A stretch of 64,000 bases of DNA, from the IMG/VR virus record IMGVR_UViG_3300011008_000006. One strand, given 5' to 3'. The stretch comes from a virus. Lineage: Duplodnaviria > Heunggongvirae > Uroviricota > Caudoviricetes. Below are positions 36,008-60,980 of this stretch, in pieces. The notes under the pieces are model-generated. The model was not told the DNA's origin. It saw only the letters and a list, made by a program, of their open reading frames with translations, and made no database searches. The stretch's first letter is position 1. The number at the start of each line of letters is the position of its first letter. The position numbers were made by a program, and so were the translations under genes.

Positions 36008-37369
36008 TTAAGTTAATTCTTGTGCCTCTTCAATATCAGGAGCAGTAGCTTCATCCTTCGCAATACCTTCCAGTACTTTAAAAGAGAAGTTCTTATGCTT
36101 ATATACAGCAAAGTTAGAACGGTTCAAGATACGAGCGACAACACCTTCGCGTACATGGGTTTTACCAATTGGGTCAGGACCGTCAAAGTATTCTTCTACG
36201 CGACGAAGTACATATTCACCTGGATTTACAGGAATATAATCACCATGAAGGCCAGGCACAGAGTCAGGCACGAAGAAGCGACAAAATTCAGGTACAACAT
36301 TTACGCCCATTTGTTCGCAACGCTCACGAATTTGGTCAGGAGAATATTCAACTACATCGCCATCTTCGTTTACCATAGTCATACGATAAACATATACTTC
36401 ACAACAAGGTGCTTCTATTGCAGTTTCTTCCCAAGGTCCATGCTGATCACAGCCATATGCAAAAGTAGTAGTGTCTCCATATAGCTTAGTAAATTCTGGA
36501 TCTTTTACTTTGTTATTGGCAACCTGGCTCATAATAGGTGCTCCATCTGGGCCCTGGAAACCTACAATTTCGTAATATACTACTTCACCCTTATGAAGTT
36601 TTCCTTCAAACTTTGCTGCCATTGCATGACGGAAATCATCACTTTCATAGAAACCGCCATTGCGTATTCCATCAAGTACCACGCGACGAGTACCAGTAAT
36701 ATAGCCATATTCCATATAGTCCTTACCATGACGATGGAACAATTTATCAAGCCAAGTGCGCTTAGTATGAAGTAAAGGTAAATAGCCAGTACGCCCTGAA
36801 GTTCCGTGCATTTTTAGAGTGAGTTGTACTAGGTCACCAGGCTTAAATACATCTAGATTATAAGCGAGCTGCGCAGTATCTACATGTTCGTAGAAGGTAG
36901 GCGCAATATTAGCTTTTGCCTTTTTAGTGGCATTAGCTCCGTGACTGCGAGAATAAGTATTCGCGCGAGGAATATATTTCTGACAAATTAGTTCACCATT
37001 AACAGTATCAATAGTATCTCCAACCTTTAGATCAGAAATCTTACAAAAATCAGCAAGAGAAGTCAAAGGCATAAAAAGACCGTCAGATTTTTCGCCGCGA
37101 AGCTTTAGTGCCTTAATGTTGCGCTTATCGGGGTCAAGATAACCGCCACAAGGTTTACCATTTTCATCTTTACGCCGCACTAGGTCATTTACAGCGCAAT
37201 AACGCTCGGAGAGTTGACCGTCTACAGGGAAATAAATTCCCTTATCTCCAATATGAGTATCAAGACTTACAATAGTATCATTACCAAAGAAGGTAGCAAT
37301 TTGCAGTCTATCAGCATTAGAATGTTTACGAAGTTCTTTTACTTCAACAATATATCCACAATAAGGCAT
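36008..37369 (-). CDS. RNA ligase (Rnl2-like KxHG nucleotidyltransferase) fused to an N-terminal tRNA-binding (Trbp111/EMAP-like) domain
   Basis: N-terminal HSNADRLQIA...GDKG OB-type tRNA-binding motif, then motif I LKMHGTSGR; 453 aa. Confidence 0.5.
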   Translation of the reverse strand: MPYCGYIVEVKELRKHSNADRLQIATFFGNDTIVSLDTHIGDKGIYFPVDGQLSERYCAVNDLVRRKDENGKPCGGYLDPDKRNIKALKLRGEKSDGLFMPLTSLADFCKISDLKVGDTIDTVNGELICQKYIPRANTYSRSHGANATKKAKANIAPTFYEHVDTAQLAYNLDVFKPGDLVQLTLKMHGTSGRTGYLPLLHTKRTWLDKLFHRHGKDYMEYGYITGTRRVVLDGIRNGGFYESDDFRHAMAAKFEGKLHKGEVVYYEIVGFQGPDGAPIMSQVANNKVKDPEFTKLYGDTTTFAYGCDQHGPWEETAIEAPCCEVYVYRMTMVNEDGDVVEYSPDQIRERCEQMGVNVVPEFCRFFVPDSVPGLHGDYIPVNPGEYVLRRVEEYFDGPDPIGKTHVREGVVARILNRSNFAVYKHKNFSFKVLEGIAKDEATAPDIEEAQELT

Positions 37370-41591: not shown

Positions 41592-43094
41592 TTATTTAAT
41601 GTTAGCGTATCTAGGCTCATTTAATTTTTCAAACATTAAAGCCATTCCGTCTTTACCAGAAAGAATAGTCTTTACCATATTCATGGAAAAACCGCTTACA
41701 TAGGAAAATTTATCTCCGATAGCAGGAATATTCTCGTGACGAGCATCAAGATTCCAGAAGATAATACGAGGTGTAGTGTATCCATGCGCTTTCCACTTTT
41801 TCATCTGCGCTTCAATTAGAGTATTGATATTATCTGTTGTGCTAAGTGGTTTGCGGATACGACGACCCCACATATCATAAGCCCATTCATTAGAAGTAAG
41901 AGTATGATTAAACTCCATATCACTGAAGATATATAGAGTCTTAGGCATATCTTCTGGTTTTACTTTTTTCTGAATGGCAGTATGAAGTAGCAAATCAAAT
42001 ACGGATTCAATATTAGTAGAATTATTCCAATTTGCATTTCTAGCGCGCCAGAATTTATCATAAATATCAATACCTTTAAACTCAACAAGTTCAGGATTAT
42101 CTGAGAAGGTGATGAAGTGATTATGGAATGGGCCCTTACCACGTTCAGCAATATAAGCGCCCATAGATACCGCAGCGTTTAATGGTTGACCGTACATACT
42201 ACCACTAACGTCAACAATAGCAATACCGGGCTCTTCGCGGCCAGCATAATAGTCTTCAAGATTATCCCAATACTTTTGCCAAGTAAGACGCTCAATTTCA
42301 GTTGTGCGCCAAGAATTAGAAAAAATTTGATTAGCAATATCAACAGGATTTAGTACCTTAGCATTTACTTTAGTAGTCTTATCAGACATAAATGCCTTGT
42401 ACTGTTCTTTGATAATATCTCTCTTCGCAAAAGCATTCTTATAAATTAGACCAGCGCGAGAAGGAATTTTATCAAATTTAATTTCATCCCAACGATTTTG
42501 AGACATTAAGGTTTCGACAATGTTGATGCGGTTGCGGAGTAGAGATAGCATCTTACGGTATGCACGAGGAGTTAGGTCAAGAGCTTCACGAGTTTTCTGG
42601 CCTAATCTGCGGCTTTCATAAGAAGAAGTATTTTCACTCTTACACCACTTTGCAAGCAAAGAAGGAGTGTTGCATTCAACGTCAAGAATTAACTGCTTGC
42701 AAATAAACTCAAACATTTCCTTTTCAACAGGAGTATCTACTAGGGAATATAGGTCATCCCAACGTCCCATTTCAGGGATAAATTTCATGTTGCGAATTAC
42801 TGCATCTTTATTTTCGCGCGCGAGCCATTTAATAACTATACGGAAGAAACGACGTTCGCCTGCGCCGCCGCGGCAGTCACGAAGATAGAATAAACACTTT
42901 AGCGCGTATTCTGGATTTTCTTCATATGCATTTTTAAACATTAGAATAACGTCATCGTCAGAACGATTACGCATAGAACCGCCCATACCAAACATATCTA
43001 ATAGCGCGGATTTAGTAGTCTTATGAGTGATAGCACCATTTTCGGTGTGAGTATAATTAAAATTGTCCTTTAACCCATTTAGTAATGTATTCAT
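41592..43094 (-). CDS. DUF2828-like / Ro60(TROVE)-like protein with C-terminal vWA domain
   Basis: YLRDCRGGAGERRFF, typical of DUF2828, plus MIDAS IVDVSGSM; 500 aa. Confidence 0.45.
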   Translation of the reverse strand: MNTLLNGLKDNFNYTHTENGAITHKTTKSALLDMFGMGGSMRNRSDDDVILMFKNAYEENPEYALKCLFYLRDCRGGAGERRFFRIVIKWLARENKDAVIRNMKFIPEMGRWDDLYSLVDTPVEKEMFEFICKQLILDVECNTPSLLAKWCKSENTSSYESRRLGQKTREALDLTPRAYRKMLSLLRNRINIVETLMSQNRWDEIKFDKIPSRAGLIYKNAFAKRDIIKEQYKAFMSDKTTKVNAKVLNPVDIANQIFSNSWRTTEIERLTWQKYWDNLEDYYAGREEPGIAIVDVSGSMYGQPLNAAVSMGAYIAERGKGPFHNHFITFSDNPELVEFKGIDIYDKFWRARNANWNNSTNIESVFDLLLHTAIQKKVKPEDMPKTLYIFSDMEFNHTLTSNEWAYDMWGRRIRKPLSTTDNINTLIEAQMKKWKAHGYTTPRIIFWNLDARHENIPAIGDKFSYVSGFSMNMVKTILSGKDGMALMFEKLNEPRYANIK

Positions 43095-43143: not shown

Positions 43144-43743
43144 TTATAGTGGGTAATTGTAAAGTTCTTTCATAGGAACTCCAAATTTTTGCATTTCATT
43201 CCATCTATTTCGAATATCGGTAATTGCTTCATCAATATGCACTGGTGTACAATTATGACTATCCATACCAACATGGTACATAAATGGATTATCTGGCTGA
43301 AGCCAATTTTTTTGTTGATGAGTGTGCCCGTGCATATTAATTACATGCTGTGAAAAATGTTTATCATCATAATTTGCAGTTAATGTTGGATAATGCGAAA
43401 GATAAATAGAATATTTTCCATATTTAAACATATGTGCATATCCAAGTGTAATAATATTTGGGCACTCTGTATGAATGAGCATTTGCCGCGATGGCGAATC
43501 ATGGTTGCCCCAAATGATATTAATTGTTCCATTAAGACTCTTTAGACATTCTAGACCAATTTTATTATTTGTAAGCATAATATCACCAAGATGAATTACT
43601 GTATCATCTGGCTTTACCACCTTATTCCATCTTTCAATGATAGCTTCATTCATTTCTTCTACACTTTGAAAACCACGTGGTTCCCATAGGAACATGGGCT
43701 GATGCGCGAAATGAGTGTCGCTGGTGAGAAAAATTTCGCCCAT
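43144..43743 (-). CDS. calcineurin-like metallophosphoesterase
   Basis: SDTHF, GDI, GNHD and GHTH motifs. Confidence 0.7.
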   Translation of the reverse strand: MGEIFLTSDTHFAHQPMFLWEPRGFQSVEEMNEAIIERWNKVVKPDDTVIHLGDIMLTNNKIGLECLKSLNGTINIIWGNHDSPSRQMLIHTECPNIITLGYAHMFKYGKYSIYLSHYPTLTANYDDKHFSQHVINMHGHTHQQKNWLQPDNPFMYHVGMDSHNCTPVHIDEAITDIRNRWNEMQKFGVPMKELYNYPL

Positions 43744-44225
43744 TAAACTTCTCCTTCAATAAACCACTTACCTATTTCGCGTGAATCTTCTTTATCTGGA
43801 ATAGTAAGTTTCGCGCGCATATCACGAATTACATCTTCTGGAACATTTGCATGCCCAACACGATTTTTATTATGTTCAATGCATACTTCCGCGGAGGCAA
43901 GAAATACAATATAAATAATATTATAATCTGTATAATATTTATCAATCGCATTTGTAAGTTTCTTACGGGCCGCAGTATTTAAATGAGTAGCATCAGCAAC
44001 TGCATTATAGTTATTTTTTAAAGCGGTAACAATTTCATTAATAAAATCATTATAAACTTCATTTTCAAAATCAAAATAATGCGCATTTGGATTTTTATCA
44101 AGATAACGGAATCGAATAGTGTCACGAGATACCCAAACAATATGTCCATTATTAGAAAAATTTGCCGCGAAAGTTGACTTGCCGCACCCGGGGGCACCAA
44201 TTAAAATATATAAAGTAGATTTCAT
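43743..44225 (-). CDS. P-loop polynucleotide-kinase-like kinase (Pnk kinase-domain-like)
   Basis: LIGAPGCGKST resembles T4 Pnk TIGCPGSGKST; start taken at MKSTLY. Confidence 0.5.
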   Translation of the reverse strand: MKSTLYILIGAPGCGKSTFAANFSNNGHIVWVSRDTIRFRYLDKNPNAHYFDFENEVYNDFINEIVTALKNNYNAVADATHLNTAARKKLTNAIDKYYTDYNIIYIVFLASAEVCIEHNKNRVGHANVPEDVIRDMRAKLTIPDKEDSREIGKWFIEGEV

Positions 44226-44226
44226 T

Positions 44227-44505
44227 TTATTCCTCTTCTTGATAATTAAGTTTATCAATTTGTTTTCTATCTCTCATGCTCCAATTGGTATTAGGAAGCC
44301 AAGAATTTTTAATATGTTTATTATTTGTTTTTTCAGCACATAGAGGACAAGAACAATGAATTTTATTTTTTGAATATTGATGTAAATTATCATACCAGTC
44401 ATGATGATAGGTACCCGTATCAAGCGCACGATCAAGATTTCGTTTACGAATTGCTTTTTTCCAATCATTATGGCGTTTTTCCGCGGTGTCTCTCATAATA
44501 ATCAC
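44227..44505 (-). CDS. hypothetical protein (Cys/His pairs)
   Basis: 92 aa ORF with CSCPLC. Confidence 0.3.
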   Translation of the reverse strand: MIIMRDTAEKRHNDWKKAIRKRNLDRALDTGTYHHDWYDNLHQYSKNKIHCSCPLCAEKTNNKHIKNSWLPNTNWSMRDRKQIDKLNYQEEE

Positions 44506-48205: not shown

Positions 48206-48210
48206 AATCA

Positions 48211-48924: not shown

Positions 48925-48948
48925 TAAGTATCTATTCTTTATATTTAT

Positions 48949-48977
48949 ATTATATCACAATTTTCTCCGAAAGTCAA
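48949..48977 (-). promoter_or_regulatory. consensus promoter upstream of tRNA-Pro
   Basis: attata 48949-48954; agtcaa 48972-48977. Confidence 0.6.
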
Positions 48978-49212: not shown

Positions 49213-49230
49213 AATAATTCCTCCTTATTA

Positions 49231-49302
49231 AGCGCCGAGTAGGAGTTGAACCTACTAACAAAGCATTTGCAGTGCTTCACCCGGCCGACGAGTATTCGGC
49301 GC
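49231..49302 (-). tRNA. tRNA-Cys (anticodon GCA)
   Basis: Acceptor GCGCCGA/TCGGCGC, loop CTGCAAA, T-arm GTAGG-TTCAACT-CCTAC. Confidence 0.8.
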
Positions 49303-49306
49303 GTAT

Positions 49307-49382
49307 TGGTGCCGAGGGGCGGAATTGAACCACCGGCACGGAGATTTTCAGTCTCCTGCTCTTCCTGCTGAGCTACCTCGGC
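49307..49382 (-). tRNA. tRNA-Phe (anticodon GAA), CCA encoded
   Basis: Acceptor GCCGAGG/CCTCGGC, D-arm GCTC/GAGC, anticodon stem GGAGA/TCTCC, loop CTGAAAA, T-arm GGTGG-TTCAATT-CCGCC. Confidence 0.85.
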
Positions 49383-49392
49383 GTAAATAAAA

Positions 49393-49465
49393 TTGGAAGG
49401 ACAGGAGTTGAACCTGCGTCTTCGGAGCCACAATCCGAGGTTTTACCGTTAAACTACCGACCACA
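49393..49465 (-). tRNA. tRNA-His-like (anticodon GTG), acceptor-stem mismatches
   Basis: Anticodon stem TCGGA/TCCGA, loop TTGTGGC, D-arm GTTT/AAAC, T-arm GCAGG-TTCAACT-CCTGT. Acceptor TGGTCGG/CCTTCCA has 2 central mismatches. Confidence 0.4.
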
Positions 49466-49471
49466 TATAAG

Positions 49472-49542
49472 CAGGAGTTGAGTGATTTGAACACCCACCA
49501 CTTGTTTTGGAGACAAGTAGACTACTATTATCCTAAACTCCT
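49472..49542 (-). tRNA. tRNA-Trp (anticodon CCA)
   Basis: Acceptor AGGAGTT/AACTCCT, anticodon stem CTTGT/ACAAG, loop CTCCAAA, T-arm GGGTG-TTCAAAT-CACTC. Confidence 0.8.
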
Positions 49543-49543
49543 A

Positions 49544-49695
49544 TGAGGGAAAGTGAGGAATCGAACCTCAACCAAGAAGCAATGCCCATACACCACATTC
49601 CCATAAATCCCACAATTTACCATTCCATATGCCCTTATGTTCTGGTAGTAGAGAATGGTGGGTTTCTACTCTACATTTCCCTCCTCAACGGGCGA
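49544..49695 (-). ncRNA. about 150 nt elongated tRNA-like RNA
   Basis: T-arm TGAGG-TTCGATT-CCTCA. Terminal 8 bp stem GAGGGAAA/TTTCCCTC. D-like stem GTAGAG/CTCTAC. About 90 nt GC-rich insert. The region carries only a spurious ORF (49543..49788). Confidence 0.3.
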
Positions 49696-49828
49696 GGTGT
49701 CCGGCGTACTCTTATGGTGGCCGCGCTTCACCTTTTGGGAGTTGCCGCTCCCGCACTACTTTCGGCAACAAGTAGACTGGCATTTTAAATAGAACAGGTT
49801 GTTCGCGTGTTGGTCATATATTTAATAA

Positions 49829-49901
49829 TGCACACAGACGGACTCGAACCGCCGACACCCACGGTGTAAACGTGGTGCTCTCCCAACTGAGCTATGCGTG
49901 C
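49829..49901 (-). tRNA. tRNA-Val (anticodon TAC)
   Basis: Acceptor GCACGCA/TGTGTGC, D-arm GCTC/GAGC, anticodon stem CCACG/CGTGG, loop TTTACAC, T-arm GGCGG-TTCGAGT-CCGTC. Confidence 0.85.
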
Positions 49902-49905
49902 ATAT

Positions 49906-49981
49906 TGGAGCCTACGGTCAGATTTGAACTGACTACCTCTTCTTTACCATAGAAGTGCTCTACCAATTGAGCTACGAAGGC
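49906..49981 (-). tRNA. tRNA-Thr (anticodon GGT), CCA encoded
   Basis: Acceptor GCCTTCG/CGTAGGC (1 mismatch), D-arm GCTC-AATTGGTA-GAGC, anticodon stem CTTCT/AGAAG, loop ATGGTAA, T-arm GTCAG-TTCAAAT-CTGAC. Confidence 0.7.
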
Positions 49982-50078
49982 ACGCGTCGCAACTTTTTTA
50001 GCTTTACATGTGAAGTTGCGGAACGCACATGGGTCGGTTTTGTGTTGATCAGACACTGCTGACGGGCGCCGCCGCCAC

Positions 50079-50153
50079 TGGTACCTCACCAGGGACTTGA
50101 ACCCTGACAACTTTGATTAAGAATCAAATGCACTACCATTATGCTAGTGAGGT
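50079..50153 (-). tRNA. tRNA-Lys (anticodon CTT), CCA encoded
   Basis: Acceptor ACCTCAC/GTGAGGT, anticodon stem TTTGA/TCAAA, loop TTCTTAA, T-arm CAGGG-TTCAAGT-CCCTG. Confidence 0.85.
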
Positions 50154-50157
50154 ATAT

Positions 50158-50231
50158 GGTGCGGGTATTGGGAGTCGGACCCAACGTGCTCACATTAAAA
50201 GTGTGATGCCATACCGCTTGGCTATACCCGC
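50158..50231 (-). tRNA. tRNA-Lys (anticodon TTT), CCA encoded
   Basis: Acceptor GCGGGTA/TACCCGC, D-arm GCCA/TGGC, anticodon stem TCACA/TGTGA, loop CTTTTAA, T-arm TTGGG-TCCGACT-CCCAA. Confidence 0.8.
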
Positions 50232-50301
50232 TAACGTACAAATTATATTTTACATCGACCTGTACCCGATGACTGGTCTTATAGGCAGAACCAGCGTGCC
50301 T

Positions 50302-50460
50302 TGGTGGAAAGTGGGGGATTTGAACCCCAGGTGATGTGCGGACCACCTTCGGTGCGTGCAATTAAAATGCTCATATGACCCTTACGCATAGACCTCTGTT
50401 TGCCCGAGGCCGGTGACGATTGCCACAGCGGACGCTACCCTGATGCGTCAATCACTTCCC
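50302..50460 (-). ncRNA. about 159 nt elongated tRNA-like RNA with encoded CCA
   Basis: 5' GGGAAGT pairs with 3' ACTTTCC (7 bp, one G.U), followed by A-CCA. T-arm TGGGG-TTCAAAT-CCCCC. D-like stem GACGC/GCGTC with GG loop. About 95 nt internal GC-rich insert. Confidence 0.4.
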
Positions 50461-50646
50461 ATTAATAATTTCCCATTCATCTTCACCTGGGACAATAGCA
50501 CAACCGCCCCAAGTTCCATGAATTAGTCCCGCATCATCAATATATTTAACAATTCCTTCTTTTCCAGTATACTGTGGTTCACCAGACATAAAGATAATTC
50601 TAACTTTATCTCCAACCTTAGTCATCTTTTTCTCCCCTTTCAACAT
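50452..50646 (-). CDS. hypothetical small protein
   Basis: 64 aa ORF. Confidence 0.35.
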   Translation of the reverse strand: MLKGEKKMTKVGDKVRIIFMSGEPQYTGKEGIVKYIDDAGLIHGTWGGCAIVPGEDEWEIINGK

Positions 50647-50650
50647 ATTT

Positions 50651-50679
50651 ATTATAACATAATTTTAATATAATGTCAA
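50651..50679 (-). promoter_or_regulatory. consensus promoter for gene 50452..50646
   Basis: attata 50651-50656; tgtcaa 50674-50679. Confidence 0.6.
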
Positions 50680-50683
50680 TTAA

Positions 50684-50926
50684 TTATTCCCATTGAAATT
50701 TATTAATTTTTCTTGGAATATCATTATACCATTTTTTATGTGCGCCGCAATTGGGACAATAATGATATATTTTATTTAAGTCAATTTCTGTTTTAAAAAT
50801 ATCTGTACTATGAGATATTTTATGACAAGGATAATAAAATCCACATTTACAATAGGCATAAAAGGCACAATCACCTTTATATCTTCGTATATCCCAATTA
50901 TGATCAATTTGCCTACCTTTTCGCAT
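50684..50926 (-). CDS. hypothetical Cys-rich small protein
   Basis: 80 aa ORF. Confidence 0.3.
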   Translation of the reverse strand: MRKGRQIDHNWDIRRYKGDCAFYAYCKCGFYYPCHKISHSTDIFKTEIDLNKIYHYCPNCGAHKKWYNDIPRKINKFQWE

Positions 50927-50948
50927 AAAATCTCCTTAGAAACAAAAT

Positions 50949-50985
50949 AACTAGGAAATTATTCCTAGTTATTCAATTTTAAAGC
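50949..50985 (-). terminator. rho-independent terminator after the tRNA-Gly(GCC) unit
   Basis: aactaggaa / ttcctagtt stem. On the minus strand it is followed by TTATTTTGTTTCT. Confidence 0.55.
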
Positions 50986-51053
50986 GGCTAACCAGGCTCG
51001 AACTGGTGATGGATGCATGGCAAGCATCAATGTTACCGCTACACTATAGCCGC
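50983..51053 (-). tRNA. tRNA-Gly (anticodon GCC)
   Basis: Acceptor GCGGCTA/TAGCCGC, D-arm GTGT/ACAT, anticodon stem GATGC/GCATC, loop TTGCCAT, T-arm ACCAG-TTCGAGC-CTGGT. Confidence 0.8.
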
Positions 51054-51142
51054 ATAAAACTAGACCATTTAATTTGAGAAAGGATTTGTAGCAAAAATAT
51101 TTTCTTTAATTCATTAAATAATTGCTGTAATGGTCTAAACTA

Positions 51143-51237
51143 TGGCAACCCCTCTGGGAGTCGAACCCAGAACAACCTGCTTCAGAGGCATATCACGGTT
51201 TTAGAGACCGGTGCTCTACCAATTGAGCTAAGGGGCT
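51143..51237 (-). tRNA. amber-suppressor tRNA (anticodon CTA, reads UAG); type-II-like with about 24 nt variable region; G73; CCA encoded
   Basis: Minus-strand sequence AGCCCCT-TA-GCTC-AATTGGTA-GAGC-A-CCGGT-CTCTAAA-ACCGT-[GATATGCCTCTGAAGCAGGTTGTT]-CTGGG-TTCGACT-CCCAG-AGGGGTT-G-CCA. The anticodon loop is CTCTAAA, so positions 34-36 read CUA. Confidence 0.7.
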
Positions 51238-51327
51238 ATAATAAATAACACGACGATTTAAAATTAGCTACATAATTTAAAAGATTATTGCTTATATTAT
51301 TATAAAAATTTGCTGTAATCGTCGTAA

Positions 51328-51403
51328 TGGTCTCCCGTGAAGGATTTGAACCCTCATTAATAGATCCGTAGTCTATTGTCCTAGTCCATTAGACGAACGA
51401 GAG
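51328..51403 (-). tRNA. tRNA-Arg (anticodon ACG), CCA encoded
   Basis: Acceptor CTCTCGT/ACGGGAG, D-arm GTCT/GGAC, anticodon stem ATAGA/TCTAT, loop CTACGGA, T-arm GAGGG-TTCAAAT-CCTTC. Confidence 0.8.
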
Positions 51404-51543
51404 ATAGTGGAGGGAGAATATTTACGACCTTCTCCTCCCGTTACAGGTCCACTGACGTGCAAGTCTTCTAAGGTAACTTGTTCCCTTCACGTTTAGCTAA
51501 TGTTAAGAGTCGCCGCTATATGTCCCACGCTCTTAACATAATT

Positions 51544-51572
51544 ATTATAACATAATTTTAGAAAGAAGTCAA
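51544..51572 (-). promoter_or_regulatory. consensus promoter driving the tRNA-Arg / suppressor tRNA / tRNA-Gly unit
   Basis: attata 51544-51549; agtcaa 51567-51572. Confidence 0.6.
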
Positions 51573-51575
51573 ATA

Positions 51576-51905
51576 TTAATATTCCTTATATCCATAATGG
51601 GTAAGTAGTTGCCGCATATTCTGTACACCAACAGGATTCATACTATGGATGTGAAAACCGGCAAGTGGAATTCGGTGTTGAATAATAAACTTACAAATAT
51701 CATAACCAGAATATTCATAATTATCATCATCAAAACCAAGATCATGGTCAAGGTCAATGAAAATTTCATCTGTAAGATGTTGAGTGAGAACTTGTACAGT
51801 CTGATTATAATCGCGACAGATGATTAGACGCCACTCGGGATAAAGATTCATATTATAATAAGTATCATCATCACGAATATCATCTACGTAAATGTAAATT
51901 TTCAT
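51576..51905 (-). CDS. hypothetical protein
   Basis: 109 aa ORF; its 5' UTR shares a motif with the gene at 52015..52353. Confidence 0.35.
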   Translation of the reverse strand: MKIYIYVDDIRDDDTYYNMNLYPEWRLIICRDYNQTVQVLTQHLTDEIFIDLDHDLGFDDDNYEYSGYDICKFIIQHRIPLAGFHIHSMNPVGVQNMRQLLTHYGYKEY

Positions 51906-51989
51906 ATTGCTCCTTTCAATATAAAAGACACTTTGTTTAACAATTATTGCGGCCTTCTTTTCGTACTTCCGCCTGCTCCTCGCAATATT

Positions 51990-52018
51990 ATTATACTATA
52001 AATTTTATACAATGTCAA
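51990..52018 (-). promoter_or_regulatory. consensus promoter for gene 51576..51905
   Basis: attata 51990-51995; tgtcaa 52013-52018. Confidence 0.6.
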
Positions 52019-52353
52019 CTATTAAAATTATTAATTGTTTCTAACAAATAATTAATAATTTCTCTAATTGATTCAATAGTATAATCAATATTAGATTTAG
52101 TAGCTAATTCTGCAACCTGCATCTCAATTAACGTAGTTTTATTAGGAATAAAAATTGCTAATAAAATTAAAATTATAGGAATTATGTAAAAAATAATTTT
52201 CCATTTTGGGAATTTATTATTTTCTACTACGAATTCAATTAATGTAACTATAATACTAATACCATATAGCACTGAAAATACAATTAAAAATATTTTAAAA
52301 CCATCACAAACATTTAGCCAGTAGAACCACATTGGATTAATAATATAATTCAT
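52015..52353 (-). CDS. hypothetical membrane protein
   Basis: 112 aa, hydrophobic; preceded by a roughly 585 nt GC-rich leader. Confidence 0.35.
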   Translation of the reverse strand: MNYIINPMWFYWLNVCDGFKIFLIVFSVLYGISIIVTLIEFVVENNKFPKWKIIFYIIPIILILLAIFIPNKTTLIEMQVAELATKSNIDYTIESIREIINYLLETINNFNS

Positions 52354-52379
52354 TTAATACTCCTTTCTGTATAGAAAAC

Positions 52380-52965
52380 TCTCTGTTTAACAATTAGCGT
52401 GACCTTCGCCATACCAATTATCTTCTTCTTGTATATTATGCTACTATTGACCATTAGGCTGTAGCATGAGTAGCGACCTCATACCATCTAATAGCCGCGC
52501 TTTCGCGCCGAGAATAGGAAGGATTGTCTACCTTCAAGTTTCACCCAAGCCATTCAGCAATATGAAAAGAATTAAAACGCTTCTTTTTAATAACATATTC
52601 ATTTGCTGTCTTGAGCTACTCCAACCGTAAACCTCACTTATATGCCATTTCTGACTTTCACCGACAGTAGCGACTTGTGGTTATTTCCAGAGGTTGTATT
52701 GGCTACCACCCCAACACCTTATCTGGATTCGGCCTGGCTCTTAACCTAGCTTTCTATTGTGCCGCCGTGAGGAATCGTGCATTTACAAGCGAAGTAATCG
52801 GCGCCTACCCTTAACATTTGGAGTTTCTCCCTTATCGCTAACTATTACTAGTTTCGCGTCGCATACTTGAAAGTATCCCATCAAGGTCTGCGATGTTATC
52901 CAGGTAGCCCAAGCTGTGTGGCTAACACATCTTCACTTGGTTCGTAATTGCTAAACAGAGAGTTC
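52380..52965 (-). ncRNA. about 585 nt GC-rich structured RNA element in the 5' leader of gene 52015..52353, closed by an 18 bp terminal helix
   Basis: 5' end CTCTCTGTTTAGCAATTA and 3' end TAATTGTTAAACAGAGAG are reverse complements with one G.U. The paralogous leader of gene 51576..51905 has the same AATTGTTAAACA motif without the insert. No ORF. Confidence 0.45.
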
Positions 52966-52989
52966 TTTGTTTCCCTTTCTTACATATTT

Positions 52990-53018
52990 ATTATAACATA
53001 AATTTGGAAGAAAGTCAA
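52990..53018 (-). promoter_or_regulatory. consensus promoter driving the 585 nt structured leader and gene 52015..52353
   Basis: attata 52990-52995; agtcaa 53013-53018. Confidence 0.6.
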
Positions 53019-53329
53019 GTATTTAATTCATATTTTTCCTGTTCTTTTTCCCATTGACTTACTGGCGGAAAATAACGTCCACATAGTGGACAATGAAATA
53101 ATCTTTTATTATATCCGCCACCATTTGTTTCATATAGTATTGGATAATCTACTCTTAGATAAACTTCTGCTTCTGTTTCAACTGGAATATAATCACAAGT
53201 ATAGCCACCATGCCCATCATGACCTTCATAATGATAATTTACAATTTTATCATATTTAATACGTTTTTTAATACCTAATGGATAATATGGGCCATTACGA
53301 GGAGTATTTTTTTCACAGACGCAGGACAT
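53015..53329 (-). CDS. hypothetical zinc-binding protein
   Basis: 104 aa ORF with C..C...C..C. Confidence 0.35.
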   Translation of the reverse strand: MSCVCEKNTPRNGPYYPLGIKKRIKYDKIVNYHYEGHDGHGGYTCDYIPVETEAEVYLRVDYPILYETNGGGYNKRLFHCPLCGRYFPPVSQWEKEQEKYELNT

Positions 53330-53361
53330 ACTTTTACCTCTTTCTTCCTTTTATATATTTA

Positions 53362-53390
53362 TTATATCATAGATTTTGAGAAAAGTCAAA
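53362..53390 (-). promoter_or_regulatory. consensus promoter for gene 53015..53329
   Basis: attata 53362-53367; agtcaa 53385-53390. Confidence 0.6.
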
Positions 53391-53394
53391 TAAT

Positions 53395-53467
53395 GTCCAA
53401 TAAAGGATTTGAACCTTCAAAAACATGGTCCTTAGCCATGCGCGTCTGCCGTTGCGCCAATTGGACA
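53395..53467 (-). tRNA. type-I tRNA with anticodon AAG (second copy; identity unclear)
   Basis: Acceptor GTCCAAT/ATTGGAC, D-arm GCGC/ACGC, anticodon stem CATGG/CCATG, loop CTAAGGA, T-arm GAAGG-TTCAAAT-CCTTT. Confidence 0.5.
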
Positions 53468-53471
53468 TAGT

Positions 53472-53551
53472 AGCCCGCCTCAGATTTGAACTGAGAACCC
53501 GAAGGCACGCATTTTGAGTGCGCTGCGTAAACCAATTTCGCCAGCGGGCCA
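53472..53551 (-). tRNA. tRNA-Leu (anticodon CAA), type II
   Basis: Acceptor GGCCCGC/GCGGGCT, A73, 3-bp D-stem, anticodon stem GCGCA/TGCGT, loop CTCAAAA, variable arm GCCTTCGGGTT, T-arm CTCAG-TTCAAAT-CTGAG. Confidence 0.7.
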
Positions 53552-53559
53552 TACGTAAA

Positions 53560-53986
53560 TAGGCTGTTCGTCAAATTCCATTTAACATTGCGGGCATAGG
53601 GATTTCACCTTACCTCAGATTCATCATTCTGCACCTATTTACACAATAATTAGCTGTTCATCTAACTCCATTTACTACTGCTGCTTTTCCCGCGTGAGCA
53701 ATCTCAACACTGTCTTAGGATTTTTCCTCGGAATTTTTGATTGCTCTTGTTTCAGCGTACATCTCCACAAGGACTTAGCTGATTGGCTTCGTAGCACTAA
53801 TTATTTTACATAGGTTATTGTTCCACTATCAACTACTTACAGGGTCCTCTTACCCAAGCCAACAATAGGCTGGTTTTCAATACCATTTAACTTCTGCCTT
53901 TTGACGCCCAAGTCTTTTGGTACAGCTCATCAAACAGCACTCTTACCATATCCTTGATTCGTTACGAAAGTACCTATTTTCAAAAA
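53560..53986 (-). ncRNA. about 430 nt GC-moderate non-coding segment between the 134 nt tRNA-like RNA and tRNA-Leu
   Basis: No ORF; transcribed within the tRNA operon that starts at promoter 55627..55655. Confidence 0.3.
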
Positions 53987-54120
53987 TGGTGCTGGTGGCC
54001 GGACTCGAACCGGCACGCTCAAAGAGCATCAGATTTTAATGGTACTCGGCACTGGTGCTGCCCCAGCGAAAGTCACTGGACACCGAGTGTCTGAGGTGTC
54101 TGCCATTCCACCACACCAGC
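53987..54120 (-). ncRNA. about 134 nt elongated tRNA-like RNA with encoded CCA
   Basis: Acceptor GCTGGTG/CACCAGC (perfect) followed by A-CCA. T-arm GCCGG-TTCGAGT-CCGGC. About 60 nt extra GC-rich sequence between the D region and the T-arm. Overlaps spurious ORF 54055..54252. Confidence 0.4.
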
Positions 54121-54273
54121 ATGAATGCTACTATTAACCGTCGTAGCCACGTGCTCCCCTGGTACGCATTGTTAAGAGGCGTGGGCAAGTCTATTAAAAC
54201 TAGATACGCTTATCTTCCCGGAGCCGACCCGGTGCTTCAAAATACCGCTTGAGAAGAAAAATTGCTGACGTAT

Positions 54274-54344
54274 CTCGGCTTGGAGCGGCATACCCGATTT
54301 GAACGGGCGAAATTTGCTTGGAGGGCAAAGGTGTTACCACTACA
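54274..54344 (-). tRNA. tRNA-Gly (anticodon TCC)
   Basis: Acceptor GCGGCAT/ATGCCGC, D-arm GTGT/ACAC, anticodon stem TTTGC/GCAAA, loop CCTCCAA (C33 is unusual), T-arm GCCCG-TTCAAAT-CGGGT. Confidence 0.6.
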
Positions 54345-54424
54345 CTAATGCCGCATTGCCTACTTAACCCAATAGGTTTAGATATAAAAGTGATCTCTTA
54401 CGAGGGTAGAAAGAGAAGAGAGCA

Positions 54425-54661
54425 TTATTCTTCTTTTATTTGAGTTCCAGTTATAATACTACGCTTGTATTTAACATAATCAGGGTCTAGGCACTTATAC
54501 TTTACTGGCTTACTCGAATTAGGCACACGATCAAGTATAGAGCGAACAGGAGGATCGAATGATGTCTCCTTCGTGGGATATAGTAATTCGTCACGTGGGA
54601 CTCTGTCTTGTGGCGCATCTCTTCCATTCTTCCTTTTTTCTTTTATTTGAGTCTCAGTCAT
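54425..54661 (-). CDS. hypothetical protein with internal T.TQIKE repeat
   Basis: 78 aa ORF lying between tRNAs. Confidence 0.25.
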   Translation of the reverse strand: MTETQIKEKRKNGRDAPQDRVPRDELLYPTKETSFDPPVRSILDRVPNSSKPVKYKCLDPDYVKYKRSIITGTQIKEE

Positions 54662-54756
54662 AGTTATTCTTCCTTTTTTTATTTTAGTTTCCGTTATAAC
54701 GAGAAAGTAGTTTACCTACTTAACTCAATAAGCTAGAGTATCTTTAATAAAGGTAG

Positions 54757-54831
54757 TCGAGCATCTTCGATTCGAACGAAGCATCTCGCGCTTATCAGGC
54801 GCGCGCACTAAACCAACTGTGCTAATGCTCG
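54757..54831 (-). tRNA. tRNA-Ile (anticodon GAT)
   Basis: Acceptor CGAGCAT/ATGCTCG, D-arm GCAC/GTGC, anticodon stem CGCGC/GCGCG, loop CTGATAA, T-arm CTTCG-TTCGAAT-CGAAG. Confidence 0.8.
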
Positions 54832-54853
54832 ATAGCGGCTTTCGCCGCGTTAA

Positions 54854-55393
54854 TTAGGGCCACTCTCCTAATGGCATACCAAGACCAGCACGTTCAACAT
54901 TAGTATTATAAAATACACCTGCTGTTGCTGGGCCAGTAAGAAGTTCATTAGCAATAGTTTCGTATAGGGTACTAATAATACCGTGGCAATCATTCAGATT
55001 ATCTGCGGCAAATTGTACCACGCAATTATTAAATACTACATAAGTTGTACCAATCCACATATAACCTTCTTCTGCAGGACATACAGAATAAGCATAAGCA
55101 GGATTGCCGCTAAAAGCTGTATCAAATAGTTCAACCTTACTTGTAAAAGCGCGATTACTAGGTGTGCCATCAATAATAACCTTTAGAGAAATATTACCAA
55201 AATTAACTTCTTCTGGAAGAATCTGTAGTAAAGCCGCAACCTTATCGCCATTATTGCAAGCAAGTATTACAGTAGGATGACTACCAGAAAAATCACAATT
55301 GAAAGCAATCTGAGGGTCACCATCAAATAGAGCTTCAAGTTTACGAATTACAATAGTCCAAGGGGGTAAAATCTTTAAACGTACATCACTCAT
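54854..55393 (-). CDS. hypothetical protein
   Basis: 179 aa ORF lying between tRNAs. Confidence 0.4.
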   Translation of the reverse strand: MSDVRLKILPPWTIVIRKLEALFDGDPQIAFNCDFSGSHPTVILACNNGDKVAALLQILPEEVNFGNISLKVIIDGTPSNRAFTSKVELFDTAFSGNPAYAYSVCPAEEGYMWIGTTYVVFNNCVVQFAADNLNDCHGIISTLYETIANELLTGPATAGVFYNTNVERAGLGMPLGEWP

Positions 55394-55473
55394 ATTATAT
55401 ACCTCACATAATAAAATAGCAGTAGGTTGCTAGCCGCACATCGGTTTAGTCACCACTTTTGCTCAGGTGAGAG

Positions 55474-55544
55474 CGGCCGATGAGAGAATTGAACTCCCCT
55501 GGGGTGGTTAACAGCCACCTGCCATACCACTTGGCGAATCGGCC
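55474..55544 (-). tRNA. tRNA-Asn (anticodon GTT)
   Basis: Acceptor GGCCGAT/ATCGGCC, D-arm GCCA/TGGC, anticodon stem GGTGG/CCACC, loop CTGTTAA, T-arm GGGAG-TTCAATT-CTCTC. Confidence 0.8.
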
Positions 55545-55626
55545 ATATCATACCCGAAGGTATGATGACGGAGTTAATTTATGATTGGTAGTAAGAAGAG
55601 CGACCTTTTCTCTTTCTTACATATTT

Positions 55627-55655
55627 ATTATAACATAAATTTATATCTATGTCAA
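55627..55655 (-). promoter_or_regulatory. consensus promoter driving the tRNA-Asn ... tRNA-Leu unit
   Basis: attata 55627-55632; tgtcaa 55650-55655. Confidence 0.6.
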
Positions 55656-55799
55656 ATAATAATCTGGTAAATTTTCAAATTGTTTTAAATTAGAAATAAA
55701 GCGTTTTACATTTATATTTCTTATCCCTGCTCGTAATAGATGCTTCATTTTCTAACTAATAGCAATACCTAACGCATCTTCACTTTTACTTTCATATTT

Positions 55800-57323: not shown

Positions 57324-57334
57324 TATATCACCAC

Positions 57335-58279: not shown

Positions 58280-58544
58280 ATTATCACCATATAAAAAAAA
58301 TAAACTAGACGGTCTTTTTTAATGCGACCAACTACACCACGCGGCCGGAGCCCACCCGACCACGGAGGGAATCGAACCCTCGCCTTAATTTTACAGAATT
58401 ATTTTCAAAGAAAAAAATTGCTGACCCGTCTTATGGGCTATGGTGTAGCAAGTAAGATTTGAACTTACAGTGTTAGACGGCCCGTCGGCAAAAACATCTA
58501 ACAACTCTCCCGCGTAAGCATTACTTTGGTCGCTTACTGGTTGC

Positions 58545-58893: not shown

Positions 58894-60431
58894 CTATAAT
58901 ACCCACATCCGGGAACGATCCGGAATTTTCACCTTGAAAGGGTGACGAACTAACCAATTATTCGATGCGGGCATAATTCCAGTGTTGGCGCACCGGAATA
59001 GCGAAACGCCGCCGACTAGTTATTATTACGCCAATAATAATAACAAACTTTTTTTAAACTTTTAATCTTTGTTTTTCATCGACTTTGCTTCTCACATTTT
59101 TACACAGATACGTGTCAACTGTTTGCTCTTCATTGGAATCGAACCAATCCTTCCGGGCGTGCTTTCCATTACACTATCAGAGCATAACTGCGCGTTTTGA
59201 TAACCCAGACGCGAAGTCACTCTACTGGGGAGGGAAATTCATCCACTCATACTGCGTTCAACTGTTGATCAAGCAATCGTAATTATGGGTTAGCTTTCAC
59301 CCATACCCCATATCCGTCGGGTCGCATTTACCTACACATTGTGACGGGTGCGGAGGGCCCTTCCACCGCTTTTCTGATTTATCGACAATCAGTAAGGACT
59401 TCACCCATTACTTTCCTTCCATCCCGTTTTTCGGCATCCTTTTTAAGTGTAAGGTCACTAATTTTCCCATCCCATTTTTTGAAAGGCTTAGTTTGGAAAA
59501 TCTAACGTCCTGTCGTTGCCTTTTATAACCATTTCACAGAATGGACTCACTTATTTATACTAGGTCTCTCCTAGATTTAATTGGCTGTTCTTCAAACTCC
59601 ATTTAGCCCATTCTTCACTTTGCTTGTATAGCTGCTTGCAAGCCAGCTTTGCTTTTCAAAAGCTAATACATTGAGCATTTGGGCACCATACTATGCGCTT
59701 CCCGTCATCCCTGGCGGAGCCATGTCCATAGCGTTATGTAATGAGAATCTCGCATTACATCCATACAACTAGTTGTGAAAACGATTCATTTCCACTTTTT
59801 CGATAACTAGTAATTACTTTGGCTATCAGGTTGCCATCCCAATCTAACGATGATTGACGACCTGTGAATAAGGTTTTAACAGGTTTTACTTACCGCACCT
59901 GTACCATCGGTAGCTTACGCCGCACTTATTGGTGTTTTGGAACCATACGCTCTCCAGTTGCCACCTTTGAGCGGGGCTAGACTCTAAGTGCATCAGGGTT
60001 TTCTGACATCATTGTGCCTCTACCTTTTCGCCCTAACATCACTACGTCGATGTTTCTCATCTTGAACGGATACCTTCTAACGGTCTGGTATCAACCGTTG
60101 GTCGCAGATAATGGAGTTGGACCATTTCCTCAAGCGTTATGAGCGCCGCGGCTTAACCGTTTGCCCTATCTGCGATAAAGAGAAAATATTTTCTCTTTAC
60201 GATACTTACAGCATAATTTTAAAAAAAGTCAAGGCACATAAAATTCTTTTGCATTACCATACTATGCTACTTGCCCAATGGGGCGAGACGAGATTTGAAC
60301 TCGCGATTCAAAGATTATCTTTGATTTTGCTGTATGTGCCTTTAAATGGAAAGTACGAGAATCGAACTCGTGTCCGCTGCGTGCAAAGCAGCAATTCTAG
60401 CCCCTAAACTAACTCCCCATCTCATATATCT

Positions 60432-60617: not shown

Positions 60618-60980
60618 ATAATATCCATACTAAATTTTAGTATTAAATTTAAGATTGGGTCTTAAAATGTATAACCGTAATTTAGTATGGATAGCAATTT
60701 CCTCTTGAAATTACAAAGTCATATCTATATCGAAGATAAACCGAGCCATTGATAGCTGGTATTCTCCACTAACAACTTCCATTATCGTAAAAGTTGCCCT
60801 ACGTCATAGTATTACTCCGGATTAACTTACATGGCTATGAACTCATGGCGGTCATTCACGCAGACCATAATTAGCCCCGACGTTTATTCTACTTATCCAT
60901 GGAAAGGCGAGAATAAAAGAAACCTTTAATAAAATGTCCTATTGGGTGCGCATTGTAAAGAGGCGTAATAGGAACTTTGG
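60600..60980 (-). ncRNA. about 380 nt non-coding leader upstream of tRNA-Arg(TCT), starting with a 13 bp hairpin
   Basis: Stem tccatactaaatt / aatttagtatgga at 60608-60675. No ORF. Lies behind promoter 60589..60617. Confidence 0.3.

What the first reader, a model, noticed from the sequence alone, without database searches (positions are those of the whole stretch)
52380..52965. A roughly 585 nt GC-rich structured insert with an 18 bp closing helix in a 5' UTR; candidate large ornate ncRNA (ROOL/GOLLD-class)
The leaders of genes 51576..51905 and 52015..52353 share the motif AATTGTTAAACA(A/G)AG just upstream of the RBS. In the second gene a roughly 570 nt GC-rich segment with no ORF is inserted and bracketed by reverse-complementary ends (CTCTCTGTTTAGCAATTA ... 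TAATTGTTAAACAGAGAG).

A few other GC-rich non-coding islands of about 45% GC also sit among tRNAs and behind consensus promoters: 45421-45960, 53560-53986, and the 1.9 kb promoter-to-terminator transcript at 58545-60420. The remaining intergenic DNA is about 25-30% GC.

Large structured RNAs of phages from Gram-positive hosts, such as ROOL (about 580 nt) and GOLLD (about 800 nt), are characteristically found next to tRNA arrays. That makes them the prime hypothesis. I could not verify their consensus from memory.
Basis: inference. Interest (0 to 1): 0.8.

Follow-up and report, generated by a model that had tools for sequence, protein, structure and literature searches.

The report
ROOL RNA in phage tRNA island
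The flagged 585-base segment is a full-length copy of ROOL, an already described large phage RNA that assembles into an eight-copy hollow cage of unknown function.

Summary
Window 52380..52964 (minus strand) is a full-length ROOL RNA. It matches Rfam RF03087 at 317.7 bits (gathering score 99.1) over model positions 1-574 of 574.

- **Closing helix:** it is real, with 20-nt arms that are 95% complementary.
- **Coding:** no ORF spans the segment, even if TAG or TGA is read as sense.
- **Folding:** it folds far better than shuffled sequence (z = -5.1).
- **Relatives:** five ROOLs from related viral contigs support the family structure. 51 pairs change on both sides, against 8-31 in slid controls.
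- **Cage contacts:** the two kissing loops that hold the cryo-EM ROOL cage together (B1, B4) stay complementary through compensatory changes. The B1 pair AGCC/GGCU is found only in this window.
- **Transcription:** a consensus promoter (53018..52990) lies just upstream and no terminator follows. ROOL is therefore positionally a 5' leader. What follows ROOL differs among relatives (ORFs or tRNAs), so it is an autonomous ncRNA and not a gene-specific leader.
- **Shared motif:** the "shared leader motif" is a 3' remnant of ROOL in front of the cREC_REC gene.
- **Other GC-rich islands:** these match no large-RNA family. They are patchworks of tRNA-like modules, a Y-RNA-like candidate and a 48-nt ultraconserved element.

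This is a new member of a known kind, and interest is low to moderate.

The parts
52990..53018 (-). Sigma-70-type promoter, TTGACT-17 nt-TATAAT with a TG extension. It ends about 26 nt upstream of the ROOL 5' end.
   Evidence: 11 of 12 matches, TG present. The same promoter type lies at the same distance in 8 of the 9 closest ROOL loci that have upstream sequence.
52380..52964 (-). ROOL RNA, full length (585 nt).
   Evidence: Rfam RF03087, 317.7 bits, gathering score 99.1, model positions 1-574 of 574. nhmmer profile of relatives. Covariation.
52945..52964 (-). 5' strand of the closing helix P1.
   Evidence: Inverted repeat I1. The P1 sequence differs between window/L001/L002 and L003/L005/L006, and 6 of its 16 pairs change on both sides.
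52377..52396 (-). 3' strand of the closing helix P1. It contains AATTGTTAAACA.
52920..52923 (-). Hairpin loop AGCC. It corresponds to the 5' partner of intermolecular kissing loop B1 in the cryo-EM cage (env-120 A38-C41).
52548..52551 (-). GGCU, the 3' partner of kissing loop B1 (env-120 G465-U468), just after the conserved CUGAAU.
   Evidence: 4 of 4 Watson-Crick pairs here. Relatives use AACC/GGUU or AAUC/GAUU.
52705..52708 (-). Loop UGGU, one partner of kissing loop B4.
52678..52681 (-). ACCA, the other partner of kissing loop B4.
   Evidence: UGGU/ACCA here. L003 and L005 have UGGC/GCCA, a compensatory change.
52473..52474 (-). Self-complementary GC in the conserved loop GUCGCUAC. It corresponds to bridge B6 between the half-shells.
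   Evidence: GCTAC is invariant in all six sequences of the alignment, and env-120 has GCUAA.
52558..52610 (-). A/U-rich variable linker. In the cryo-EM structure this is the disordered loop inside the cage.
   Evidence: It falls in the unstructured variable stretch of the Rfam model and is unalignable among relatives. Paper: PMC12286853.
52354..52379 (-). Short spacer with the RBS AAAGGAG between the ROOL 3' end and the next ORF. No terminator-like site is present.
   Evidence: Sequence. Terminator scan.
52015..52353 (-). Downstream ORF of 112 aa, hydrophobic, with no family above threshold. Probably co-transcribed with ROOL.
   Evidence: Absent at this position in L001 and L002.
51931..51966 (-). 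Remnant of a ROOL 3' end (terminal hairpin plus the 3' strand of P1) in the leader of the cREC_REC gene.
   Evidence: From GTACG to the start codon it aligns almost base for base with the ROOL 3' end plus cREC leader of L002.
51576..51905 (-). cREC_REC gene (PF20274, 64.7 bits), with its own 12/12 promoter at 52018..51990. In L002 it directly follows ROOL.

Best explanation
The segment is the gene for a ROOL RNA (Rumen-Originating, Ornate, Large; Rfam RF03087) of a large, low-GC tailed phage.

**Shown here**
- The sequence matches the family model end to end.
- The family's helices are kept by compensatory changes in related phage contigs.
- The nucleotides that form the inter-chain contacts of the solved ROOL cage are present. 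These are kissing loops B1 and B4, the self-complementary GC of B6, and the GAAA loop.
- B1 and B4 remain complementary through double substitutions.

**Inferred**
- The RNA is made from the consensus promoter at 53018..52990 as the head of a transcript that runs on into ORF 52353..52015.
- It folds with the 18-20 bp P1 helix closing the molecule.
- Like the env-120 ROOL (PDB 9MDS), it assembles without protein into a D4-symmetric homo-octameric hollow cage, with the A/U-rich linker inside.

**Not known for any ROOL**
- What the cage does. The best current guess comes from the literature and from this context: a tRNA array of 30 tRNA genes, a kinase, phosphoesterase and RNA ligase set, and a cREC_REC gene. 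On that guess ROOL is an abundant, autonomous RNA that sequesters or scaffolds components of the translation or tRNA machinery during infection. It would not be a regulator of the gene behind it.
For: **Identity**
- Rfam ROOL at 317.7 bits against a gathering score of 99.1, model positions 1-574 of 574, E = 3e-72.
- No other large-RNA family matches at E <= 1.
- MFE z = -5.06.
- P1 inverted repeat of 20 nt, 95% complementary.

**Structure in relatives**
- Five further ROOLs (298-324 bits) lie in contigs related through the cREC_REC protein.
- With the family structure projected on their alignment, 74% of cells are paired against 35-51% when slid. 51 pairs change on both sides against 8-31 when slid. 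For paired cells, double-change pairs and cells, and covariation score, 0 of 500 shuffles reach the observed values; for further pair types, 7 of 500 do.

**Cage contacts** (residues from PMC12286853, supplementary table 2)
- B1 is AGCC/GGCU in the window, AACC/GGUU in six relatives, and AAUC/GAUU in two relatives and in env-120. All give 4 of 4 Watson-Crick pairs.
- B4 is UGGU/ACCA in the window, L001 and L002, against UGGC/GCCA in L003 and L005.
- The B6 loop GCUAC is invariant across the six aligned ROOLs, and the GAAAU loop is present in the window, L001, L002 and L005.

**Context**
- 28 ARAGORN tRNAs, plus an Rfam-only tRNA and an insert-bearing tRNA-Leu, all lie on the same strand as ROOL.
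- Phage replication and tail genes are present.

**Transcription and autonomy**
- The promoter is found and conserved in 8 of 9 close relatives.
- No terminator lies between ROOL and the next ORF.
- The element downstream of ROOL varies among relatives.

**Literature**
- ROOL occurs in phages and prophages near tRNA islands, forms a homo-octameric nanocage, and has unknown function (PMC12286853; PMC5737381).
Against: - 33 of the 155 model pairs that map onto this sequence are non-canonical in the Infernal alignment. Several helices (model helices 7 and 10-12) are poorly paired in all six relatives. This reflects local misalignment or real divergence.
- There is no expression data. Transcript ends, abundance and oligomeric state are all inferred.
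- Complementarity of B1 and B4 cannot by itself distinguish inter-chain from intra-chain pairing. That assignment rests on the published structure of a different family member.
- The env-120 sequence recovered from the PDF supplement was 650 nt, not 659 nt. Residue numbers beyond about 120 were therefore matched by motif, not by count.
- The functional proposal (sequestration or scaffold) has no direct support here.
Confidence: 0.93

Rival explanations
1. ROOL is a cis-acting 5' leader, a riboswitch-like or translational control element, for the ORF immediately downstream.
For: - It lies between a promoter and an ORF with no terminator-like site.
- In L002 the same arrangement precedes the cREC_REC gene, and the 3' P1 strand plus the RBS spacer are conserved as one block.
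Against: - The downstream element is not conserved. It is ORF112 here, cREC_REC in L002, tRNA-Asn 20-105 nt downstream in L003, L006, L017 and L026, tRNA-Leu in L013, and unrelated ORFs elsewhere.
- A 585-nt RNA with 19 stems that forms a protein-free cage (PMC12286853) is not what known leaders look like.
- The cREC_REC gene here works with only the remnant and its own promoter.
Confidence: 0.05
2. The segment is a mobile insertion bracketed by terminal inverted repeats, such as a MITE-like element or a degenerate intron, and the repeats are transposition ends and not an RNA helix.
For: - 20-nt inverted repeats sit at both ends.
- A paralogous leader lacks the interior.
- Homing-endonuclease ORFs and tRNA inserts are common in these loci.
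Against: - The repeat sequences differ between relatives while staying complementary, which is a constraint at the RNA level.
- There is no match to an intron family, no transposase, and only one copy in the window.
- The 'empty' leader keeps an internal ROOL hairpin, so it is a deletion or duplication remnant and not an empty target site.
Confidence: 0.01
3. The segment is a decayed or recoded protein-coding region.
For: The phage carries a CUA (amber-suppressor) tRNA, so some recoding is conceivable.
Against: - The longest stop-free run is 59-82 codons under the standard, TAG-sense or TGA-sense codes, and all runs are antisense.
- Substitutions among relatives preserve base pairs, not codons.
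Confidence: 0.01

Closest known systems
ROOL RNA (Rfam RF03087): env-120 from cow rumen, cryo-EM PDB 9MDS; also the abundant Ligilactobacillus salivarius ROOL RNA cited in PMC12286853
   Same: - It matches the family model over its full length, and its size (585 nt) is close to the family mean of 581 nt.
- It has the closing P1, the multi-stem architecture, the variable linker, the B1, B4 and B6 contact motifs, and the GAAA loop.
- It lies in a phage tRNA island on the same strand as the tRNAs.
   Different: - Primary sequence only. No blastn match in 50,697 GenBank phage records.
- The B1 pair is AGCC/GGCU, against AAUC/GAUU in env-120.
- It lies directly upstream of an ORF with no terminator.
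- A second, truncated 3' remnant lies 400 nt downstream.
GOLLD RNA
   Same: It is a large ornate phage or prophage RNA, often next to tRNA arrays, that forms a protein-free cage (a 14-mer) with a disordered internal linker (PMC12286853).
   Different: The sequence and fold are unrelated. No GOLLD match appears in the window even at E <= 1.
Precursor stems of rRNA operons (long helices formed by flanking sequences and cut by RNase III)
   Same: An 18-20 bp helix formed by the two ends of a large structured RNA embedded in a longer transcript. This resemblance comes from general knowledge and is inferred, not tested.
   Different: In the solved ROOL structure P1 is part of the mature, ordered molecule. 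No processing data exist.

Membership tests
ROOL (RF03087) | Covariance-model score above the curated gathering score, over the whole model | tested here: met
   317.7 bits against 99.1, model positions 1-574 of 574, not truncated.
ROOL (RF03087) | Family secondary structure maintained by compensatory changes | tested here: met
   Six sequences: 74% of cells paired against 35-51% when slid, and 51 double-change pairs against 8-31. For these and the covariation score 0 of 500 shuffles reach the observed values; for further pair types 7 of 500 do. Helices 7 and 10-12 are poorly supported.
ROOL (RF03087) | Kissing loop B1 (env-120 38-41 with 465-468) complementary | tested here: met
   AGCC/GGCU gives 4 of 4 Watson-Crick pairs. 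Three different complementary versions occur among 9 ROOLs plus env-120.
ROOL (RF03087) | Kissing loop B4 (env-120 307-310 with 332-335), described as highly conserved | tested here: met
   UGGU/ACCA here and UGGC/GCCA in L003 and L005. L006 pairs only 3 of 4.
ROOL (RF03087) | Self-complementary GC in loop L18 (bridge B6), and the GAAA loop that donates the B2 A-minor contact | tested here: met
   GUCGCUAC at 52473-52474 and AGAAAU at 52648-52651. GCTAC is invariant in all six aligned ROOLs. The GAAAU loop context was recovered directly in four of them (window, L001, L002, L005).
ROOL (RF03087) | Variable, unstructured linker between conserved domains | tested here: met
   52558-52610 is A/U-rich and unalignable among relatives.
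ROOL (RF03087) | Phage or prophage context, often near tRNA islands | tested here: met
   28 ARAGORN tRNAs plus 2 more, all on the same strand. Phage topoisomerase, helicase, primase and tail genes are present.
ROOL (RF03087) | Protein-free homo-octameric (D4) cage | not testable with these tools
   Requires mass photometry or cryo-EM of the transcript. Only the contact motifs could be checked.
ROOL (RF03087) | Expressed as an abundant stable RNA | not testable with these tools
   No transcriptome data. Only a consensus promoter is seen.
GOLLD, HEARO, OLE, raiA (other large bacterial or phage RNAs) | Match to the family covariance model | tested here: not met
   No match anywhere in the window at gathering score, nor in 44000-64000 at E <= 1. 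This also applies to islands A, B and C.
Gene-specific cis-regulatory leader | Conserved association with one downstream gene family | tested here: not met
   The downstream element differs among 12 ROOL loci.

The most novel reading that the evidence does not exclude
ROOL may be a working part of a phage RNA-maintenance island and not a free-standing curiosity.

In this phage lineage it is embedded, always on the same strand, in an array that combines:
- tRNAs;
- tRNAs whose anticodon loops carry tRNA-like inserts ending in CCA;
- a Y-RNA-like candidate;
- a 48-nt ultraconserved element;
- a cREC_REC gene, directly behind ROOL in one relative;
- a kinase, phosphoesterase and RNA ligase set.

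The cage could then be a compartment or scaffold that shelters phage tRNAs or their processing or repair intermediates from host anticodon nucleases. The evidence does not exclude this, but it is co-location only.
Probability: 0.08. Interest if true: 0.85.

Novelty: new member of a known kind. Interest (0 to 1): 0.27.

Why it matters
**For the scan:** a tool-free reader correctly recognised a ROOL from sequence alone.

**For biology:** the gain is modest. This is one more ROOL, with no close relative in GenBank phages.
- It carries a lineage-specific compensatory change in the B1 kissing loop (AGCC/GGCU). This gives a ready-made natural test of whether that contact is needed for cage assembly.
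- Its context is rich in RNA-repair and tRNA-like elements. This could guide experiments on the still unknown function of ROOL cages.

Tried and rejected
- **Phage database searches.** blastn of ROOL (distant mode) and megablast of 44-64 kb against 50,697 phage records gave no match. Relatives were therefore found through the neighbouring cREC_REC protein. The 104-aa protein at 53015..53329 found no relatives.
- **env-120 numbering.** The env-120 sequence from the PDF supplement came out 9 nt short, so later contacts were located by motif. My first regular expressions for B1 and B4 were off by one or too strict and were redone.
- **Island B as a decayed copy of the HNH gene** that occupies that position in L002. 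tblastn shows nothing in island B, and the best hit anywhere in the window has E = 0.44. Rejected.
- **Islands A and B as large structured RNAs.** z = -2.2 and -1.2, no Rfam family, and no conservation beyond short patches. Not supported.
- **The 48-nt element.** It matches no known RNA family and is not a stable fold (z = +0.6). It is absent from 185,579 bacterial and archaeal genomes. It remains unexplained.
- **The 500-aa 'RNA-binding protein' (phrog_850) as a sequence relative of solved Ro60.** No PDB match.
- **A fixed ROOL-cREC_REC gene pair.** The gene is adjacent only in the window, L001 and L002 lineage. In L003, L005 and L006 ROOL lies 6-9 kb downstream of it, and no ROOL was found in L004, L007 or L008.

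Full report
**1. The observation**

Window 52380..52964 has 43% GC, while the gene just downstream has 18-25%. It is bracketed by an inverted repeat with arms 52377-52396 and 52945-52964, 20 nt long and 95% complementary. The one DNA mismatch becomes a G.U pair in the minus-strand RNA.

Nothing codes across the segment. The longest stop-free run is 59 codons under the standard code, 82 with TAG read as sense and 79 with TGA read as sense. All of these are on the antisense strand.

As RNA, the minus strand folds to -188.8 kcal/mol. Dinucleotide shuffles give -152.3 +/- 7.2, so z = -5.06.

**2. What it is**

RF03087 (ROOL) matches 52380..52964 on the minus strand at 317.7 bits, against a gathering score of 99.1. 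The match covers model positions 1-574 of 574, with E = 3e-72. No GOLLD, HEARO, OLE or raiA match appears, even at E <= 1.

The host genome is a tailed phage. It has topoisomerase II subunits, a DnaB-like helicase, a primase, a DNA ligase and a tail protein. It has no near relative among 50,697 GenBank phage records. ARAGORN finds 28 tRNA genes between 44879 and 61052, all on the ROOL strand. An Rfam-only tRNA and an insert-bearing tRNA-Leu add two more.

**3. Comparative support**

I used the neighbouring cREC_REC protein as a handle and retrieved eight related IMG/VR contigs. Five of them carry a full-length ROOL at 298-324 bits. I projected the Rfam consensus structure onto a MAFFT alignment of the six sequences. 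The counts were as follows:

| Measure | Observed | Partners slid by 1-3 columns |
|---|---|---|
| Cells forming standard pairs | 74% | 35-51% |
| Pairs changing on both sides | 51 | 8-31 |

For paired cells, double-change pairs and cells, and the covariation score, none of 500 column shuffles reached the observed values; for further pair types 7 of 500 did. P1 itself has a different sequence in window/L001/L002 than in L003/L005/L006, and six of its sixteen pairs change on both sides.

Not every helix is well supported. Model helices 7 and 10-12 pair poorly in all six sequences. In the window, 33 of the 155 mapped pairs are non-canonical in the Infernal alignment.

**4. Mechanistic features**

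The cryo-EM study of ROOL env-120 (PMC12286853) shows a protein-free D4 homo-octameric cage. Its supplementary table lists the inter-chain contacts. I located the corresponding nucleotides in the window.

- **B1.** In env-120 this is AAUC with GAUU. In the window it is AGCC (52920-52923) with GGCU (52548-52551). Six relatives have AACC/GGUU and two have AAUC/GAUU. Every case gives four Watson-Crick pairs. The window therefore carries its own compensatory double change relative to its 81%-identical neighbours.
- **B4.** This is UGGU/ACCA in the window, L001 and L002, and UGGC/GCCA in L003 and L005.
- **B6.** The self-complementary GC sits in an invariant GCUAC loop.
- **B2.** The GAAA loop that donates the A-minor contact is present here; its GAAAU context was recovered in four of the six aligned ROOLs.
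- **Linker.** The A/U-rich linker at 52558-52610 corresponds to the disordered loop inside the cage.

Sequence alone cannot show that these pairings occur between chains. That assignment is taken from the published structure.

**5. Transcription and the '5' UTR' question**

A consensus promoter (TTGACT, 17 nt, TATAAT, with a TG extension) lies at 53018..52990. No terminator-like site separates ROOL from the ORF at 52353..52015. Only 26 nt, including an AAAGGAG RBS, lie between them. In position, then, ROOL is a 5' leader.

Eight of the nine closest ROOLs with upstream sequence have the same promoter at the same distance. What follows ROOL differs:
- cREC_REC in L002;
- tRNA-Asn 20-105 nt downstream in L003, L006, L017 and L026;
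- tRNA-Leu in L013;
- unrelated ORFs elsewhere.

ROOL is best read as an autonomous RNA at the head of a transcription unit, not as a regulator of a particular gene.

**6. The shared motif explained**

In L002 the ROOL 3' end runs straight into the cREC_REC leader and start codon. The window's cREC_REC leader matches that sequence almost base for base, from GTACG through the terminal hairpin, the 3' strand of P1, the spacer and the RBS. It has its own 12/12 promoter at 52018..51990.

So 51931-51966 is a leftover ROOL 3' end. The ancestral order was ROOL then cREC_REC. In this lineage ORF112 and a promoter now sit between them, with the ROOL 3' end duplicated.

**7. The other GC-rich islands**

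None of them matches a large-RNA family.
- **Island A (45417-45992)** folds only marginally better than shuffles (z = -2.2). It is not conserved in relatives beyond its promoter end.
- **Island B (53551-53986)** has z = -1.2. Its only conserved part is a 48-nt element at 53813-53860.
- **The 1.9-kb promoter-to-terminator unit (58545-60460)** is a polycistron of tRNA-Ala, a sub-threshold YrlA-like RNA (60228-60342, 37 bits against a gathering score of 69), an Rfam-only tRNA(CAU), tRNA-Glu and tRNA-Asp. About 1.1 kb is unassigned and is conserved only in patches with L002.

Extra T-arm motifs outside annotated tRNAs lie at 49554, 58365, 58452, 59132 and 60288. The islands are therefore patchworks of tRNA-like modules, not further ROOL/GOLLD-class RNAs.

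**8. Comparison with the known, and verdict**

Every testable defining feature of ROOL is met. Assembly and expression cannot be tested here. The context, a phage tRNA island, is the one described for the family in PMC5737381 and PMC12286853.

This is a new member of a known kind. Interest is low to moderate. Its value lies in the natural B1 compensatory variant and in the RNA-repair-rich neighbourhood. That neighbourhood comprises an AAA_33 kinase, a metallophosphoesterase, an RNA ligase and cREC_REC, and it offers leads on ROOL's unknown function.

Noticed in passing
window 53987..54120 (-): A tRNA-Leu(UAA) is interrupted in its anticodon loop by a 49-nt insert that looks like a tRNA minihelix (acceptor-like stem ACUCGG/CCGAGU, then ACCA at the 3' junction). 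Standard ARAGORN and the Rfam gathering-score scan missed it. 'aragorn -i' calls it. It is 86% identical to L002 8004-8137.
   Followed up: partly
L003 5706-5857; also L005 17532-17682, L026 136-281, L006 3283-3433, L003 16892-17025, L006 14751-14884, L030 10894-11037: Relatives have tRNAs with 46-77-nt anticodon-loop inserts, many of which (the loci listed here) end in CCA. In L003 the insert in tRNA-Arg(UCU) is itself a complete 77-nt cloverleaf tRNA with anticodon CUA (an amber suppressor) and an encoded CCA. 'Enigmatic' tRNA introns, some predicted to encode a tRNA, were reported for Lak megaphages (bioRxiv 10.1101/356790). How they are processed is unknown.
   Followed up: partly
window 53813..53860 (-), inside island B: A 48-nt element, GGCTTGGGTAAGAGRACCCTRTAAGTAGTTGRTARYGGAACAATAACC, is almost invariant in 30 IMG/VR contigs, with unrelated flanks and one match in each retrieved stretch. 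Where neighbouring tRNAs were seen, it lay among them. It lies on the same strand as ROOL in the 14 retrieved loci that hold both, and within about 4 kb in most of them. It has no Rfam family and no stable fold (z = +0.6). It is absent from 185,579 bacterial and archaeal genomes. Unexplained.
   Followed up: partly
window 60228..60342 (-) and 58293..58406 (-); protein 41592..43094 (-): There are sub-threshold, full-length YrlA (Y-RNA-like) matches at 37.2 and 22.3 bits, against a gathering score of 69. The phage also encodes a 500-aa protein of PHROG 850 ('RNA-binding protein'; Pfam DUF2828 + DUF7788). It has no sequence match to solved structures. This may be a Ro/Y-RNA-like pair.
   Followed up: partly
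window 43743..44258, 43144..43743, 36008..37369, 51576..51905 (all -): An RNA end-healing and sealing gene set lies next to the tRNA array: an AAA_33 P-loop kinase, a Metallophos_2 phosphoesterase and an RNA ligase (PHROG 968, E = 1e-68). A cREC_REC 'cyclic-phosphate processing receiver' domain protein lies directly behind the ROOL unit.
   Followed up: partly
window 50302..50460 (-): A tRNA-like-domain RNA of about 159 nt. Its 5' GGGAAGUG pairs with its 3' CACUUUCC, followed by ACCA. It has a T-arm-like GGGGUUCAAAUCCCC and a 5' GAUUGACGC that recalls tmRNA. The only database signal is an 11.7-bit partial tmRNA match at 50314..50328. Similar orphan T-arms lie at 49554-49570, 58365-58381, 58452-58468 and 59132-59148.
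   Followed up: partly
window 51143..51237 (-): A tRNA with anticodon CUA (ARAGORN labels it 'Pyl'), that is, an amber suppressor. This suggests TAG recoding in part of this phage's genes. Large ORFs in 1-44 kb read normally under the standard code.
   Followed up: no
window minus strand: 46021, 46665, 48977, 50679, 51572, 52018, 53018, 53389, 55655, 60460, 60617, 61534: Twelve near-perfect TTGAC(A/T)-17 nt-TATAAT promoters (11-12 of 12 matches, most with a TG extension) are all on the minus strand. Flanking sequence is similar between copies and across related contigs. This is a repeated promoter cassette that heads small transcription units in the tRNA island.
   Followed up: no
window 60102..60174 (-): A tRNA(CAU) is found by Rfam (43.5 bits) but not by ARAGORN. 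It has an unusual T-loop, UCCAACU.
   Followed up: no
L002 8176..8811: An HNH endonuclease-like ORF (211 aa) occupies in L002 the position that island B has in the window, just upstream of the 48-nt element. Other relatives have tRNA genes split by long inserts, some of which carry an ORF (L025 tRNA-Leu with an HNH ORF, L007 tRNA-Met, L017 tRNA-Pro; L002 tRNA-CUA has a 174-nt insert).
   Followed up: partly
L015 6573-6872, L016 7457-7756, L009 4315-4584, L025 740-1036: In the more distant ROOL loci, a conserved charged ORF of about 99 aa that looks like a coiled coil (MIIYSELTGKQY...) starts 37-139 nt after ROOL. It is unrelated to cREC_REC or to ORF112.
   Followed up: no
L007 12825-12936, L003 16424-16519, L004 14860-14956, L001 3408-3475; window 60937..60972 and 54156..54185: Other Rfam ncRNA motifs occur in the same tRNA islands. 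Relatives have drum RNA and skipping-rope RNA above the gathering score. The window has abiF-motif hits below the gathering score.
   Followed up: no
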